Shown: positions 3,001-9,000 of the stretch, piece by piece | Layout of the letters: each line of letters begins with the position of its first letter | Position numbering within the stretch: the stretch's first letter is position 1 | Assembly (NCBI GenBank): GCA_965113315.1 | Contig: OZ220376.1 | Source: Podarcis vaucheri | Taxonomy: Eukaryota | Strand: one strand, 5' to 3' | DNA length: 64,000 bases | Program-made: the position numbers

Positions 3001-6000
3001 TTTAAAGGTTCAGAACATTAATACGGTGGTACCTCAGGTTACATATGCTTCAGGTTACATACACTTCAGGTTACAGACTCCACTAACCCAGAAATAGTAC
3101 CTCGAGTTAAGAACTTTGCTTCAGGATGACAACAGAAATCGTGCTCCGGCGGTGCAGCAGCAGCAGGAGGCCCCATTAGCTAAAGTGGTGCTTCAGGTTA
3201 AGAGCAGTTTCAGGTTAAGAACGGACCTCCGGAACAAATTAAGTACTTGACCTGAGGTACCACTGTATGCTCTTATGCACTCTTTTTAAAATAATTTGTT
3301 GCTTCAGCTTTCTTAATTGTATAATGCGAACTGCCAGGTTTTAGTTTCACATTGCCAGGCTATCAAAGATAAGCTATTGTAGAGTTTCCTATCGTGAACT
3401 TTGTCCTTACTAATGGAAGAACTCTTATCTCAGCTGATAGCAGGGAACTGGCCTATGGTGTTTGTTTTGCTTTAGATCTTATTTTTGCATGAACCATTAA
3501 AAAATAACTCTTTAAGATGAGACACGCACCCCTCTATATTTTCTGACTTTAGCCGCACCCATTATTAGCAGTGGGAAGAAATTGTGGAAGGTTTGGCAAA
3601 AACAGCACTGTGTTTCCACTTGTGTATTTACACACCTGTCCCTAGGTATTAGATAGCATTATGATGTGTTCTAGTTTCTCCATGTGCACAGAACATCTGT
3701 CTCTAAAGCAAGCATGCAACTGCTGTTTTTCTCACTAGAATTAATAAACTCTTTCTGTAATCTGATCAATATATCTAACTGATTAGATTAAAGCAGGCAT
3801 TTATTAATGCTTGCTTCACGATTCAATAACATAAACTCCAAACTCAATATGGTTTATTACAAATACACATCTCAAGTGCCTGTTGCCAATTTGTGATTAG
3901 GGCTAATATTTATTCTCTCTTTATTACTGAATGTGATCAGGGGGTGGAAGTGGGTTGGTCCCGATTCCTCACTTTCTTGCCTTAGCACACTAAATGAATG
4001 CTATTTTATGGAAATGTTACTTGAGGCAATAAATTACGAGTGAGATATTCCAGGGCTACTGCAGTGGGTTTTGGTTTCCTTTAGATGAGAGTGCACAGTG
4101 GACATTTAAAGCATTTTGGTAATATTTGTTTCATTTACCAGTATGTCTCTTTCTGAGCTCCCACTTGCTATAACTACTTTTTGTTGGATTCCATGTGGTG
4201 TTTGGTGGCCATGGTGCTTAATCCAGGGAGACCAACAGCATGTGATGGTACAGCCATTGACAGGCAGAGCTACCCCATAACTGGTTGTTAAGAAGAAGAG
4301 GCAGGTGGGGGCTGGCTAAAGGGCAGACTGAGGTTGGTGGCGCAGCGTCCTGCTTGCACCAGCCACCACTGTCGGATATAAATTCTGAACTGAAAACTTA
4401 TCCTGGTCCCCATACCGATGTCTGCAAAAGGAAAGCACGTTAAACCGTGAACATGAAATCTTCCCTTTTGCAGAGGTGGCAGGGCATGCGAGTTCAGGGC
4501 TGGGGCTAACTCCTGTGCATCTGCTGCTCAGATGGATGGACCTAACTTCTGAATAATCATTGTCTTTTAAAAAATAGTCTTTATTAAGTATTTTCTTGTG
4601 GTACAAAAAAATAATAATCTAATAAACAAGGAAAAGTACCTATAGTGTCTCCATATTCAATTCACAGTCTTTTTTACAATTCATTTGCTTTTGGTGTCCT
4701 AAACACCATGTGGTTGGGAAAAAGAAAGGAGAGAGTGGGGGGAAGAGAGTGGGAATAATTATCTTACATTTTACTGAATAGTCTTTTTGATATTCTTACT
4801 GGCACAAAACGCTTGCTTAACCTGGAGGTAGGCTGTCTGAATTGTGCATTGCGTTGTAACAATTTGTTGGGTCTCTGGACTGTAATAAAGATTGATTCTT
4901 ACTGGTTGGACTAAATGACTTAAGCATGTCCTACTTTCTAGGTCTTCTGCTCTTTGGAGTACATCCTGTGGCATGTCTGTGATAAAGCCAATCCCCACCC
5001 TTGAGGGGCTACCATCTCTTGTTGATGCTTCAAACTTCCCTTCAGGAACAAGGAACGAGGCCATTATAATCGGGGAACAAAGCAACTGGGTGTACTACAA
5101 TAAGCCTCTTACATTGATTGCCATTGGACTCCTTGTATTTCTTAGTGGGATTGGCCTTTCTGCCTTGCACTTGGTCCACACTGTAGATGTGCCATCTGCC
5201 CTGGGGCCTGTTTGTCTTTCCATTGGACTCATGTTCTTCGTTACAGGAATGGTGTGGCTACCCATTATTAAGCACGCCCTGAGACATGATGGACTTTTAA
5301 GAGGAAGCCCTACAGACTTCAGCGCTTGAGATCCATACTTTTTAAAGTGCTATTTTTTATTATTTTTAGCTTTTTAAATTGCTTTATTGAACTTTTAAAA
5401 ATAACACAAAATCATAGTTATCCATAATAAAAAAAATAAACAACAAAAAAACTATCAATATCTGTTACACTTTATCACAGTCTTCTTTTGGTTCCAGTGA
5501 CATCCCGCCAATTCCATATAACTTTAACTATGGAATTATCCAGCACACTATTCATCTCTGTTTATAATAATTATTTTTCAAAGATAATGTACTTTCTTTA
5601 ACTTATTCAGTGAATTACAGAAGCTATTCAAAGGCTGCCATAGACTTCATATTATTACAATCCTAAATGTAATTTTTAAATAAACCCCATTTATTAAAAA
5701 ATACTTAAGGTGATATCCTGCTTGCAAATATAGCTTTCCCACTATCTTTGGTTTAACAGACATTTGTGCTAAAGGATTTTGCTTTTTCCTATAAATATTG
5801 TGGTCTTCTCCTTTGCGTAAAGGAAACATGCTCACCACTTTCTGTTGTTCCCAAATAAAAGTAGTGCAGCTGTGCATAGAATTTTTCTAATGGGCCAACA
5901 TGACTACCTTAATTTTTTGCCTCTTGAGAAATTTTGCACCTCTAGCAGATATAAACCACCAGAGCTTTTTACAGAAGGAAGAACGGTCCTCCTCTAAGGA

Positions 6001-9000
6001 GGAACCAAACAATGCTTCTGCCAAAAGGCCTGGGGAGAGCTTTTTATATTTCTCCTCCTAAAGTGGATTAGGGGTCCACTTACTTTTATGAACATTTTTA
6101 TTGGCAGTGGTGATAGGGAAAACTAGTAGAGAAGGAAGAGGTCTCATGCCACGTACTGTATTTACTCGAATCTAACGCTCACCTTTTTTTGGCCAAATTA
6201 CATTGCGAAAATTAAGGTGTGCATTTGATTTGATGGTGCTTTAGACTCAAAGACGGTAAAAAAATTTCCTCTGGCAGATTTCCTGTGCCTTTTAAAGATG
6301 AAGTTCAAGCGACTAAGCTTTTGCTTGTACAAATTAGCACCCCCACTGTGTTTCAAGTCATGTTTGATGTTGCTGTACACACCATTACCTGTTGTACACA
6401 CATTACCCCGGCACTGCCACCCCAACTCCTATTCAACAAAGCCATCATCTGCTCATGTGCTGTCATCTTTGTGAGTGGAACAGATGTCTGAAATATACAC
6501 ATCATAGCTTAACCATAGCTTATGTTTTCAAATTGGATGGAAGCTGGTCTGAGGGAAAATGCACCAAGTAGAAGTATTTCTTACGAAACTACAAGATACA
6601 TCTGGATTGTGGAAAATATCATGTGTACTCAGCTCTAAAAGGTGAGAGCACACTGGAGCTGAAGCAAACAGTAATGTATACAGAGTCTCAGTTTCCACAT
6701 TTGTTCCCTTAACTACTGCAATAAATCTATTTTTAAAGAGCCACTAGATTCTTTGTTATTTTTGTTGGGTTAACACAGCTGACCTGCACAAAATATGCTT
6801 CCCCCCCACCCCTGCAACAGCCGATGGAAAAAAGTGCTCTTACCCTGAGGTGTTTTCCTCATGGAACACTAATTCTGATTTTGAAATGGATTTGAACAAA
6901 CTAAACTTCGTTAGGTTGCTTTGAAATACACTTGGCATGGTACAGACCACATAAACAGCTTTCCAAGGAATGAAATGTTTTAAGAACAGTAACCAGGAAT
7001 TCAACAGAATAGCTGCATCTTTATACAAAAATTGAGAGGCTTCACTATGGCTTACTCTTGAACACAGTGATTCTTACTTCTGAGTAAATACGCATAGATG
7101 TTAATACTGCAAGTCCTTCCCTGGTAAGATAAGGATTATCTCACTTCTTTTTCCAAAGCACGAGGTTATTTACGCACAACCCGGTGTAAAGCACTAGCCC
7201 TAAAATAAATTGCAAGAGTCATTCGCAATGATGATGTCCAAAACTGGCCAGAATGCAACTCACAGAATCATAGAGATGGGAGGGTCACCTAGTCCAACCC
7301 CCATGTCAGTGCCAGATTTACGTACAGTATAAGCTAAACATATAAGCTATAGCTTATGGCCCCACTCTCTTGGGGGTCCAAAAAAGAATTAAAGGGGGAA
7401 AAAACCTGGATGTACATTTCCAAAATATAAGAAATATATTTCCTGGATGTACATTTCCAAAATATAAGATAAAAAACTAATAAAATAAAACCTAATAAAC
7501 TAATAAGATATAATAAAAATATATAATAAAATATAATAATAAAACCTAAAAAACTAATAAAATAAGATACAATAAAATATAATAATAAAACCTAATAAAC
7601 TAATAAAAAACTAATAAAATAAAATAAAACAGTGTTTTGTGTTGTATAGGCTCCTATGATGTAAGTAAGGGCCCCTGCCTGCTAGCTTGCTCCCTAAAAT
7701 ATCGCTGGTTTGATCATTTCTATATAAAGGGTGCCTACATTCTGCCTGTGCAAATGACTTTAGATACCTATTAGGTCCATAAATTACCATATAGTATATA
7801 TTCAACACAAAAAACAGCGACAATTTGTTGTTGACAAAGGACAGCTGGACATATAAAGGGCCCCATTACCTTCAGTATTTTAGGGTCTCATCAAACCTAA
7901 ATCCGGCCCTGCCCCGTGTCATGCTCAGTCCCACAGCCCTTGAGACCACGAGTCTCATACTCCACCGACTCCACTATCCCTGGGGTGCGTTTTGCACAAA
8001 CACACACGCGTGTGCTGCTCTCTCCCCTTTGGGTTGGGAAGGAAAAGCGATGGGGAACCGCCTGAGGCGTCTGGGAAGGAGAGTCCACGAGGGGACACCT
8101 GTCGGGGTGGCGGCGGTGGGAGGGACGCGCGCGCCGCCTCAAGGTGCGCGCGCCCCGCCCCGCCAGGTGCGAGGAGGAGGAGGGCGTGTCCTTCCCGGTC
8201 CCTCAGGTAAAGGCGGGATTCTCTCCTGCTGCTCGCCCAGCATGGCTGTGGCGCTGGGGAAGGCGCCGCCGCCTCAGGCGGGGAGCTTGTCCCCCTCAGG
8301 GGCGGCAGGTGTGGCCTCAGGTGCGCAGGGCGGGCCGGCGCCGCTCCAGGTGCTCCAAGTGCCCGGCGCCGTCCCCTCGGACGGGCTGCTCTCGCCTTGG
8401 TCCAGCGCAGTCTCCTTGTCAAGCGCCTTCGGCTCCCCTCCGGAGTCGGCCACCTCTCTGCCCGCCGCCTCGGCGCCCATGGCCTCGCTGGGCGGGGGGC
8501 TGGGCCGGTGCGCGGGCGCCTTCTGGATGGCGCTGCTCTTCGACGCGGTGGGCCTGGCCATCCTGCTGGTGGGCGTCTTCGTCGACGTCTTCTTCGCCGA
8601 CCTGCTCATCTACGGCGGCGGCGTGGGCATCTTCTTCAGCCTCCTCTGGTGGGTCTTCTGGTACGTGGGCAACCTGGAGGTGCCCGCCGCCGAGCTGCAG
8701 GACGACGTGGGGCTCCGGCGCCACTCGACCAAGAAGAAGAAGGCGGCGCCCGTGGGGGCGACCGCAGGCCACGGCCTGGCCCGGCTCGTCAGGAACCTCA
8801 GCGTGCGCTTCTCGGGGCCCTTCGCCGCCTTCTCCCGGTCCACCGAGTGCCAGCCGGGCTCCGTCAGGAGGGCTCACTTCGCCAGCGCCCCGTCGGTGTC
8901 GGTGGCCACGACGGTATCCAGCTCGGTGGAGCTGCAGGCGGCCTGAGGAGGAGGAGGAGGAGGAAGCAGGCGAGGCGAGGACGGACGGCGAGGCCGGGAG

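What the first reader, a model, noticed from the sequence alone, without database searches (positions are those of the whole stretch)
4973..8946. Tandem PIRT-like + TMEM238-like cassette beside RRN3: candidate extra paralogous module of small two-TM proteins
Seen: two intact small two-TM genes on the same strand, 3 kb apart, directly upstream of RRN3-NTAN1-PDXDC1. Recalled: in human, PIRT and TMEM238L neighbour SHISA6 (17p), TMEM238 neighbours SHISA7 (19q), and the RRN3/NTAN1/PDXDC1 region (16p13) is near SHISA9 with no PIRT or TMEM238 gene known to me. Inference: this is a whole-genome-duplication ohnolog of a SHISA-PIRT-TMEM238 block, kept in reptiles and lost in mammals. It would give lizards a second, uncharacterised PIRT-type TRP-channel regulator, potentially relevant to thermosensing in an ectotherm.
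Basis: partly seen in the sequence, partly recalled or inferred. Interest (0 to 1): 0.75.

Follow-up and report, generated by a model that had tools for sequence, protein, structure and literature searches.

The report
Extra PIRT and TMEM238 gene pair
Two small, intact membrane-protein genes of the PIRT and TMEM238 families sit side by side just upstream of RRN3, most likely an old spare copy of a gene pair that mammals keep elsewhere, and an ordinary though unstudied find.

Summary
ORF 4973..5329 (+, 118 aa) matches Pfam PIRT (E 4.2e-13, 49.6 bits, cut-off 30.6). ORF 7921..8946 (+) matches Pfam TMEM238 (E 6.4e-24, 84.4 bits). Both are two-helix membrane proteins.

The second ORF is over-called. 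Codon-position GC puts its real start at 8479, giving 155 aa.

RRN3 (+), NTAN1 (+) and the 3' part of PDXDC1 (-) follow downstream.

In its favour:
- Mammals also have TMEM238L and PIRT adjacent on one strand, next to SHISA6.
- The PIRT-like protein lacks features described for canonical PIRT: no R-x-x-S motif and a short, weakly basic tail.
- The TMEM238-like protein has an 83-aa tail that the 79-aa TMEM238L/FORCP cannot hold.

The "second TRP/thermosensing regulator" idea is weakened, because the tail that binds PIP2 and TRPM8 in human PIRT is not recognisably there.

Automatically named "PIRT-like" and "TMEM238-like" protein clusters already exist. No paper in the searched library uses these names for the genes. 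I rate it a new member of known families, of modest interest.

The parts
4929..4941 (+). Splice-acceptor-like site (pyrimidine run ending in AG), 31 bases before the ATG. It suggests an upstream non-coding exon. Inferred only.
   Evidence: Read directly. An in-frame stop lies at 4916.
4973..5329 (+). PIRT-like coding sequence, 118 aa plus stop, in a single exon.
   Evidence: Pfam PIRT PF15099, E 4.2e-13, 49.6 bits, cut-off 30.6. The nearest Atlas clusters are all PIRT family, scores 0.93-0.94.
5102..5272 (+). Hydrophobic two-helix hairpin of the PIRT-like protein, residues 44-100.
   Evidence: Kyte-Doolittle run of 1.6 or more. AlphaFold2 helices 24-70 and 77-105, with pLDDT 76-81 across residues 51-100.
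5270..5326 (+). C-terminal tail of the PIRT-like protein, 19 aa, KHALRHDGLLRGSPTDFSA. It is weakly basic: K+R 3, D+E 2.
   Evidence: The Pfam match ends at profile position 107 of 128. No helix is modelled after residue 105 apart from a three-residue turn, at pLDDT 45-62. No other reading frame continues it.
5426..5440 (+). Two AATAAA signals about 100 bases after the stop, followed by an A-rich run.
7801..9300 (.). CpG island that contains the TMEM238-like gene.
   Evidence: Windows with GC of at least 0.55 and CpG observed/expected of at least 0.6. GC 0.71-0.73 and o/e 0.78-0.94.
7921..8478 (+). Open but probably non-coding front part of the 341-aa ORF (5' UTR or promoter).
   Evidence: No codon periodicity for 7921-8475: GC 0.70/0.68/0.72 at codon positions 1/2/3.
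8479..8946 (+). TMEM238-like coding sequence, 155 aa plus stop, in a single exon.
   Evidence: GC3 of 0.98 from 8476 on. Pfam TMEM238 PF15125, E 6.4e-24, 84.4 bits. Top Atlas cluster is 'Transmembrane protein 238-like', 157-aa representative, score 0.96.
8503..8691 (+). TMEM238 domain (two-helix hairpin), matching profile positions 1-63 of 64.
   Evidence: GC3 is 1.00. pLDDT reaches 92.
8716..8742 (+). Polybasic run RRHSTKKKK, about 15 residues after the second helix. It lies in an 83-aa tail with K+R 12.
   Evidence: The tail has GC3 0.96, so it is coding.
16901..17700 (.). CpG island, probably the RRN3 promoter and first exon. Inferred only.
   Evidence: No RRN3 Pfam match in 28 + frames at 9.7-17.2 kb or in 10 + frames at 16.98-19.2 kb.
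19259..33022 (+). Range that holds the six frames matching RRN3. Individual exons were not mapped.
   Evidence: 6 of 131 + frames, minus the ranges excluded.
33006..63993 (+). Range that holds the six frames matching NTAN1: four in 33.0-48.6 kb and two beyond.
   Evidence: 6 of 132; 4 of 72.
48603..63998 (-). Range that holds the three frames matching PDXDC1. The gene runs off the right end of the window.
   Evidence: 3 of 135; 3 of 69.

Best explanation
The interval holds two real, intact, single-exon genes for small two-pass membrane proteins. One is a 118-aa PIRT-family protein (4973..5329). The other is a 155-aa TMEM238-family protein (8479..8946). They lie head to tail on the + strand, 3.1 kb apart, about 8 kb before the probable RRN3 promoter.

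The pair repeats the PIRT/TMEM238L pairing that mammals carry next to SHISA6. Here it sits in the RRN3-NTAN1-PDXDC1 neighbourhood. It is most likely an old paralogous copy of that pair, probably from the early vertebrate genome duplications, and not the pair's moved orthologues.

What is shown: family membership, intactness, two-helix build, gene order.

What is inferred: the age and mode of the duplication, the loss in mammals, and all function.

Likely working, by homology only:
- Both proteins insert as helical hairpins with both ends in the cytosol. Basic residues flank the hairpin on the N- and C-terminal sides, and there are none in the loop.
- Both probably act as small accessory subunits of larger membrane proteins.
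- The PIRT-like protein would contact partners through its helices. It lacks the strongly basic C-terminal helix through which human PIRT binds PIP2, TRPM8 and calmodulin, so it probably does not work as a PIP2-dependent TRP regulator in the PIRT manner.
- The TMEM238-like protein carries its own polybasic run and a long disordered tail. By analogy with TMEM238L/FORCP it may sit in the ER membrane.
For: - Family matches lie well above the curated cut-offs.
- Atlas neighbours are all of the same families: 10 of the ten best PIRT-like hits share a family or clan, and 14 TMEM238 clusters score 0.9 or more.
- The TMEM238-like reading frame is maintained, with GC3 0.98 against GC2 0.51.
- The PIRT-like frame is open for 118 codons where the local stop-codon frequency is 0.058. 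The chance of that is about 8e-4. An in-frame stop lies upstream.
- Both models show hairpins.
- Two unrelated small families (BLASTP between the two proteins, E 1.2) are adjacent on one strand here. They are also adjacent in mammals: sheep order TMEM238L, PIRT, SHISA6 (PMC11836209, passages), and one human antisense transcript overlaps both TMEM238L and PIRT (PMC11603882, Table 2). This points to copying of a block, not two separate events.
- The PIRT-like protein diverges from canonical PIRT. There is no R-x-x-S/T anywhere, although Arg36-Ser39 is called 100% conserved among PIRT proteins (PMC7175203, passages). The Pfam match stops at profile position 107 of 128. The tail has 3 K/R in 19 aa, against the polybasic Lys117-Arg137 helix of human PIRT (PMC6773951, passages).
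- The TMEM238-like protein is 155 aa with an 83-aa tail. Mammalian TMEM238L/FORCP is 79 aa (PMC7673786, passages).
- Neighbours RRN3, NTAN1 and PDXDC1 are confirmed.
- Recalled, not from any call: human 16p13.11 (MYH11, NDE1, SHISA9) and 17p12-13 (MYH cluster, NDEL1, SHISA6) are duplication-derived sister regions. The cassette lies where a sister copy would be expected.
Against: - No phylogeny, no search of the rest of this genome and no orthologue comparison could be run. A moved orthologue pair or a later segmental copy is therefore not excluded.
- Comparison with human PIRT rests on residue numbers printed in papers, not on an alignment. The alignment figure (Figure S4 of PMC7175203) is a supplement I could not open.
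- The sister-region argument and the human gene order are recalled. A search for NDE1, NDEL1, MYH11, MYH10 and duplication found 0 papers. A search for MYH9, MYH10, MYH11, MYH14 and genome duplication found 1 paper, on a rockfish, which I did not read.
- There is no expression or selection evidence for either gene.
- The left flank shows no gene that could anchor synteny.
- The three nearest PIRT-family Atlas clusters score alike (0.93-0.94), so they do not show which subgroup this protein belongs to.
Confidence: 0.55

Rival explanations
1. Moved orthologues. These are the genome's only PIRT and TMEM238L genes, carried together by a rearrangement to the RRN3 neighbourhood.
For: The same two families lie on the same strand and adjacent, as in mammals. 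Nothing in the window shows that a second copy exists. The left flank is uninformative.
Against: The PIRT-like protein lacks the R-x-x-S motif reported as 100% conserved among PIRT proteins, and it lacks the polybasic C-terminal helix. The TMEM238-like protein is twice the length of FORCP/TMEM238L. A cluster that an annotation pipeline named 'phosphoinositide-interacting protein-like' exists (58 members). By my recollection such a name is given where a genome has another gene called PIRT.
Confidence: 0.15
2. A later, lineage-limited segmental duplication. The PIRT-TMEM238L block was copied within sauropsids or squamates and happened to land beside RRN3.
For: It would also explain a two-gene block on one strand.
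Against: Divergence from the family profile is high: 49.6 bits, with the C-terminus unmatched. The build of both proteins differs from the mammalian pair. Landing by chance in the region I recall as the sister of 17p is unlikely. No repeat or duplication boundary was seen, but I did not search for one systematically.
Confidence: 0.15
3. One or both are unexpressed relics that still have open frames.
For: There are no expression data. The PIRT-like ORF shows no strong codon-position bias (GC 0.53/0.42/0.47). It lies in AT-rich, CpG-poor DNA with no visible promoter.
Against: A family match at E 4e-13 and an open 118-codon frame where the chance of openness is about 8e-4 would not survive long neutral drift. 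There are no frameshifts, and an acceptor-like site and poly(A) signals are in place. The TMEM238-like gene has GC3 0.98 in frame and its own CpG island.
Confidence: 0.1

Closest known systems
[quoted passage not shown]
   Same: Pfam family match above the cut-off. Disordered N-terminus, two membrane helices, short loop and cytosolic ends. Single coding exon. Adjacent to a TMEM238-family gene on the same strand.
   Different: 118 aa against 137 aa in human. No R-x-x-S motif. The tail is 19 aa with 3 K/R and no modelled helix, against the polybasic amphipathic helix Lys117-Arg137 that binds PIP2, TRPM8 S1-S4 and calmodulin. The outer-leaflet CRAC motif with Tyr is absent; the only CRAC-pattern match, VYYNK, lies on the inner side. 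Neighbours are RRN3, NTAN1 and PDXDC1, not SHISA6.
TMEM238L / FORCP (LINC00675) and TMEM238 (Pfam PF15125)
   Same: Full-length match to the 64-position TMEM238 profile. Two-helix hairpin. Adjacent to a PIRT-family gene, as TMEM238L is in sheep and human.
   Different: FORCP is 79 aa and its C-terminal part is the TMEM238-like region (PMC7673786, passages). Here the hairpin is N-terminal and is followed by an 83-aa basic, Ser-rich tail. In this it resembles the longer TMEM238, whose length I only recall. ER location and gut-specific, FOXA1-driven expression are unknown here. The gene sits in a CpG island.
TMEM100 (Pfam PF16311)
   Same: A small two-pass membrane protein. An Atlas cluster of TMEM100 scores 0.90 to the PIRT-like protein, and 17% of the members of the top PIRT-like cluster carry PF16311.
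   Different: No TMEM100 Pfam match at E up to 1. The protein belongs to PIRT, not TMEM100.

Membership tests
PIRT family (PF15099) | Sequence match to the family profile above the curated cut-off | tested here: met
   E 4.2e-13, 49.6 bits against 30.6. Residues 20-101 match profile positions 23-107 of 128.
PIRT family (PF15099) | Disordered N-terminus followed by two membrane helices | tested here: met
   Hydrophobic run at residues 44-100. AlphaFold2 helices 24-70 and 77-105, with residues 1-23 unstructured. This is the build described for human PIRT (PMC6773951, passages).
PIRT family (PF15099) | Polybasic amphipathic C-terminal helix (human Lys117-Arg137) that binds PIP2, TRPM8 S1-S4 and calmodulin | tested here: not met
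   The tail is 19 aa with K+R 3, His 2 and D+E 2. Profile positions 108-128 are unmatched. No helix is modelled after residue 105 apart from a three-residue turn, at pLDDT 45-62. No other reading frame continues the tail. Caveat: no residue-by-residue alignment to human PIRT was possible.
PIRT family (PF15099) | R-x-x-S motif (human Arg36-Ser39), reported as 100% conserved among PIRT proteins | tested here: not met
   No R-x-x-S/T anywhere in the 118 aa. The claim of conservation is from PMC7175203 (passages). Its alignment figure is a supplement I could not see.
PIRT family (PF15099) | Binds phosphoinositides and regulates TRPV1 or TRPM8 | not testable with these tools
   Needs lipid-binding and channel-current assays.
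PIRT orthologue group (next to SHISA6) | Conserved neighbours TMEM238L and SHISA6, and position inside the PIRT clade of a tree | tested here: inconclusive
   A TMEM238-family neighbour is present. The downstream neighbours are RRN3, NTAN1 and PDXDC1, not SHISA6 as in sheep. No tree could be built.
TMEM238 family (PF15125) | Sequence match to the family profile above the curated cut-off | tested here: met
   E 6.4e-24, 84.4 bits against 27. Profile positions 1-63 of 64 are matched.
TMEM238 family (PF15125) | Two-pass membrane hairpin | tested here: met
   Hydrophobic run at residues 12-62 of the 155-aa form. Helix 8-64 with pLDDT up to 92.
TMEM238L / FORCP subtype | Tail-less protein of about 79 aa whose C-terminal part is the TMEM238-like region | tested here: not met
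   155 aa, with the hairpin at residues 9-72 and an 83-aa tail. FORCP is 79 aa (PMC7673786, passages).
TMEM238L / FORCP subtype | ER location and a role in apoptosis under ER stress | not testable with these tools
   Needs tagging and knock-down in cells.
Genome-duplication sister copy (ohnologue) of the PIRT-TMEM238L block | The same two families adjacent on one strand at a second locus | tested here: met
   Window. Mammals: sheep gene order and a human antisense transcript overlapping both genes.
Genome-duplication sister copy (ohnologue) of the PIRT-TMEM238L block | The locus lies in the chromosome region that is sister to the PIRT/SHISA6 region | not tested
   The RRN3, NTAN1 and PDXDC1 neighbours are confirmed. 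The sisterhood of human 16p13.11 and 17p12-13 (MYH11 and the MYH cluster, NDE1 and NDEL1, SHISA9 and SHISA6) is recalled. Searches gave 0 papers and 1 unread paper. PMC7653359 says only that Shisa6-9 diversified early in vertebrates (passages).
Genome-duplication sister copy (ohnologue) of the PIRT-TMEM238L block | A separate canonical PIRT-TMEM238L pair in the same genome, a split dated to early vertebrates, and absence from mammals | not testable with these tools

The most novel reading that the evidence does not exclude
PIRT and TMEM238 genes have travelled as a same-strand pair since before the early vertebrate genome duplications. This window shows a third, mammal-lost copy of that pair. 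Such long-kept linkage of two unrelated two-pass proteins would mean they work together, through shared regulation or a heteromer. The PIRT-like member has lost the PIP2-binding tail, while its partner carries a polybasic run. Together they could be a channel-accessory module with divided labour, present in reptiles and absent in mammals.
Probability: 0.15. Interest if true: 0.55.

Novelty: new member of a known kind. Interest (0 to 1): 0.3.

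Why it matters
If the pair is an old sister copy lost in mammals, PIRT and TMEM238 would each gain an unstudied family member. The PIRT-TMEM238 linkage would also be shown to predate the vertebrate genome duplications.

The PIRT-like protein is a natural variant without the polybasic tail. That makes it a useful contrast for asking which part of PIRT acts on TRP channels.

A link to temperature sensing is not indicated by anything seen here. The genes are probably already present in public annotation under automatic names. 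The gain is in interpretation, not in discovering a new kind of gene.

Tried and rejected
- **Common origin of the two genes by tandem duplication.** BLASTP between the two proteins gives E 1.2, and there is no cross-family Pfam hit at E up to 1. No support.
- **NCBIfam.** Only chance-level hits, E 0.07 or worse.
- **Solved structures by sequence.** Nothing meaningful. Best hits were E 0.097 to a TRPC1 membrane segment and E 2.7 for the other protein.
- **Fold search.** The TMEM238-like model against PDB gave 0 matches. I did not fold-search the PIRT-like model because its confidence is low.
- **Retrocopy idea for the PIRT-like gene.** An A-rich run follows the AATAAA signals. I rejected the idea because a retrocopy would not bring a TMEM238-family neighbour with it.
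- **Hidden longer PIRT tail from a recent frameshift.** None found in any frame.
- **Left-flank synteny.** Frames of 52 aa or more and 118 frames of 28-51 aa in 1-4972 and 5330-7900 gave only a chance-level XAF1_C hit. Its per-protein E is 0.0065 among 118 queries. Other chance-level hits were Hep_core_N at 0.0078 (1 of 134) and DUF4920 at 0.0082 (1 of 135).
- **Mapping RRN3, NTAN1 and PDXDC1 exons.** Ten + strand frames at 16.98-19.2 kb and ten of the longest frames elsewhere gave no family. Only ranges are reported.
- **Whole-frame translation for Pfam.** I dropped the attempt.
- **Rfam and tRNA scan.** Two weak tRNA-like hits, and no tRNA by ARAGORN.
- **Literature.** No paper uses tmem238a, tmem238b, pirtb, TMEM238-like or phosphoinositide-interacting protein-like. 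The single PIRT-like hit is an unrelated clinical review. An earlier version of that search was swamped by the word or name 'Pirta'. No paper combines PIRT, TMEM100 and phylogenetic. The PIRT, SHISA6, paralog search was mostly noise. The Kim et al. 2008 Cell paper on Pirt is not held.
- **Complex prediction.** Not run, because I do not claim that the two proteins bind.

Full report
**What is there**

Between 4973 and 8946 the + strand carries two open frames.

The first, 4973..5329, encodes 118 aa. It matches Pfam PIRT (PF15099) at E 4.2e-13 and 49.6 bits, against a curated cut-off of 30.6. Residues 20-101 match profile positions 23-107 of 128.

The second, 7921..8946, is open for 341 codons. 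It matches Pfam TMEM238 (PF15125) at E 6.4e-24 and 84.4 bits, with residues 195-257 matching profile positions 1-63 of 64. NCBIfam gave only chance-level hits.

ORF length alone is not the evidence, because the window has 23 ATG-started ORFs of 100 aa or more. The family matches are. The window contains no N.

**Gene anatomy: the PIRT-like gene**

- An in-frame stop lies 57 bases upstream, at 4916.
- A pyrimidine run ending in AG lies at 4929-4941, 31 bases before the ATG. I read it as a splice acceptor, which implies an upstream non-coding exon. This is inferred.
- Two AATAAA signals lie at 5426 and 5435.
- The protein has an unstructured N-terminus, one hydrophobic run at residues 44-100, and a 19-aa tail, KHALRHDGLLRGSPTDFSA.
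- A single-sequence AlphaFold2 model (mean pLDDT 65.2) gives helices 24-70 and 77-105. Only a three-residue turn is modelled after residue 105.

**Gene anatomy: the TMEM238-like gene**

- The 341-codon frame is largely an artefact of a CpG island at 7801-9300, with GC 0.71-0.73.
- GC at codon positions 1/2/3 is 0.70/0.68/0.72 for 7921-8475. It is 0.66/0.51/0.98 from 8476 to the stop. The first ATG of that stretch is at 8479.
- The real coding sequence is therefore 8479..8946, 155 aa, starting nine residues before the Pfam match.
- The hairpin spans residues 12-62. The model gives helix 8-64 with pLDDT up to 92.
- After the Pfam domain comes an 83-aa tail with 12 K/R, including RRHSTKKKK. Its GC3 of 0.96 shows that it is coding.
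- The two proteins are unrelated in sequence (BLASTP E 1.2).

**Surroundings**

I searched the flanking genes open frame by open frame and built no joined spliced model. All 263 + strand and 269 - strand stop-to-stop frames of 52 aa or more were scanned.

- RRN3 matched 6 of 131 + frames in 1-33 kb.
- NTAN1 (N_Asn_amidohyd) matched 6 of 132 + frames in 33-64 kb. Four of these lie before 48.6 kb.
- PDXDC1-like_cen2 matched 3 of 135 - frames in 33-64 kb. All three lie beyond 48.6 kb.
- The 134 - frames in 1-33 kb gave nothing real.

No RRN3 match lies in 9.7-17.2 kb (0 of 28 frames) or among ten frames at 16.98-19.2 kb. The six RRN3 frames therefore lie in 19.2-33 kb. The CpG island at 16901-17700 is probably the RRN3 promoter.

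The order is PIRT-like, TMEM238-like, RRN3, NTAN1 (all +), then PDXDC1 (-). Nothing recognisable lies to the left in 1-4972, even among frames of 28-51 aa.

**Comparison with what is printed**

*PIRT.* Human PIRT is 137 aa. It has a disordered N-terminus, helices at about 55-76 and 93-112/115, and a polybasic C-terminal region. That region includes an amphipathic helix and binds PIP2 and the TRPM8 S1-S4 domain (PMC6773951, passages). It also binds calmodulin. An Arg36-x-x-Ser39 motif is called 100% conserved among PIRT proteins, and a CRAC motif sits at the outer end of helix 1 (PMC7175203, passages).

The window protein keeps the overall build but differs in four ways:
- It has no R-x-x-S/T anywhere.
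- It has no Tyr-bearing CRAC at the outer end of helix 1. The only pattern match, VYYNK, is on the inner side.
- Its tail has 3 K/R against 2 D/E.
- Profile positions 108-128 are unmatched, and no other frame continues the tail.

These comparisons use printed residue numbers. I had no alignment to human PIRT, and the paper's alignment figure is a supplement that was closed.

*TMEM238L.* TMEM238L is the mis-annotated LINC00675. It encodes FORCP, a 79-aa ER-located two-pass protein specific to the gut, whose C-terminal part resembles TMEM238 (PMC7673786, passages). The window protein is twice as long and carries its hairpin at the N-terminus.

**Origin**

In sheep the printed gene order is MYH13 ... 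MYH3, ADPRM, TMEM220, a LOC gene, TMEM238L, PIRT, SHISA6, DNAH9 (PMC11836209, passages). In human liver one antisense transcript overlaps both TMEM238L (9,192 bp) and PIRT (15,618 bp), so the two genes are adjacent on one strand (PMC11603882, Table 2).

The window repeats that pairing of two unrelated families at a locus with different neighbours. A block copy explains this far better than two independent events or a retrocopy.

Three histories remain open:
1. An old sister copy from the early vertebrate genome duplications. This is my preferred reading, at 0.55.
2. The only PIRT-TMEM238L pair of this genome, moved here by rearrangement (0.15).
3. A later segmental copy (0.15).

I favour the first for three reasons:
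- Both proteins depart from the described features of the mammalian pair.
- A cluster named "phosphoinositide-interacting protein-like" exists beside two other PIRT-family clusters (58, 86 and 74 members).
- By my recollection, not by any search, human 16p13.11 and 17p12-13 are duplication-derived sister regions (MYH11 with the MYH cluster, NDE1 with NDEL1, SHISA9 with SHISA6). The cassette lies between the MYH11/NDE1 side and the SHISA9 side, as TMEM238L-PIRT lies between the MYH cluster and SHISA6.

PMC7653359 says only that Shisa6-9 diversified early in vertebrates (passages). My literature searches for the sister-region statement found nothing usable.

**Function**

Nothing here tests function. 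By homology, both are small hairpin membrane proteins with cytosolic ends and probably act as accessory subunits.

The part of PIRT that binds PIP2, TRPM8 and calmodulin is the part that is not conserved.

The TMEM238-like protein's polybasic run near the membrane could bind acidic lipids. That is speculation.

**What stayed unchecked**

- The genome collection holds only bacteria and archaea, and the DNA-similarity collections hold only phages, plasmids and E. coli. I used neither.
- So there is no phylogeny, no search of the rest of this genome, no orthologues, no dN/dS, no expression data and no check of absence in mammals.
- The source organism was not determined.
- Paper supplements were closed.

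**Novelty and verdict**

Automatic names in the Atlas clusters suggest that such proteins are already in public annotation. No paper in the searched library uses tmem238a, tmem238b, pirtb, TMEM238-like or phosphoinositide-interacting protein-like, and the one PIRT-like hit is unrelated. None combines PIRT, TMEM100 and phylogenetic.

This is a new, unstudied member pair of two known families. The evolutionary reading is plausible but unproven, and the functional reading is weakened. Interest is modest.

Noticed in passing
window 7921-8478 (+) and 8274-8609 (-): Long open frames (the first 186 codons of the 341-aa ORF, and a 111-aa antisense ORF) with no codon periodicity. They are by-products of 71-74% GC in the CpG island and are not coding.
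   Followed up: yes
window 4973-5329 against 8479-8946: There is a sharp contrast in third-codon-position GC between two genes 3 kb apart: 0.47 in the PIRT-like gene and 0.98 in the TMEM238-like gene. The GC enrichment is confined to the island.
   Followed up: partly
window 16901-17700: A CpG island with open frames of up to 198 aa that match no Pfam family. It is probably the RRN3 promoter and first exon, but no RRN3 match was found there.
   Followed up: partly
window 24801-25300, 37901-38600, 42501-43200, 58801-59200: Four further CpG islands. The one at 37.9-38.6 kb carries overlapping open frames of 172-194 aa on both strands. The one frame there that I scanned on its own, the 221-aa + frame, matched no family. 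It may be the NTAN1 promoter.
   Followed up: no
window 45311-45369 (+) and 27324-27396 (-): Two weak tRNA-like Rfam matches (37.3 and 30.2 bits against a gathering score of 29). ARAGORN does not call them tRNAs. They are possibly tRNA-derived repeat elements inside RRN3 or NTAN1 introns.
   Followed up: partly
window 7459-7629: An AT-rich tandem or low-complexity array (periods 5-59) lies immediately upstream of the CpG island of the TMEM238-like gene.
   Followed up: no
window 5424-5455: An A-rich run follows the two AATAAA signals after the PIRT-like stop. I considered it as a retrocopy poly(A) remnant and set that idea aside because of the linked TMEM238-family neighbour.
   Followed up: partly
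window 8716-8742: A polybasic run, RRHSTKKKK, lies in the tail of the TMEM238-like protein. The PIRT-like neighbour lacks the polybasic tail that is typical of PIRT.
   Followed up: no
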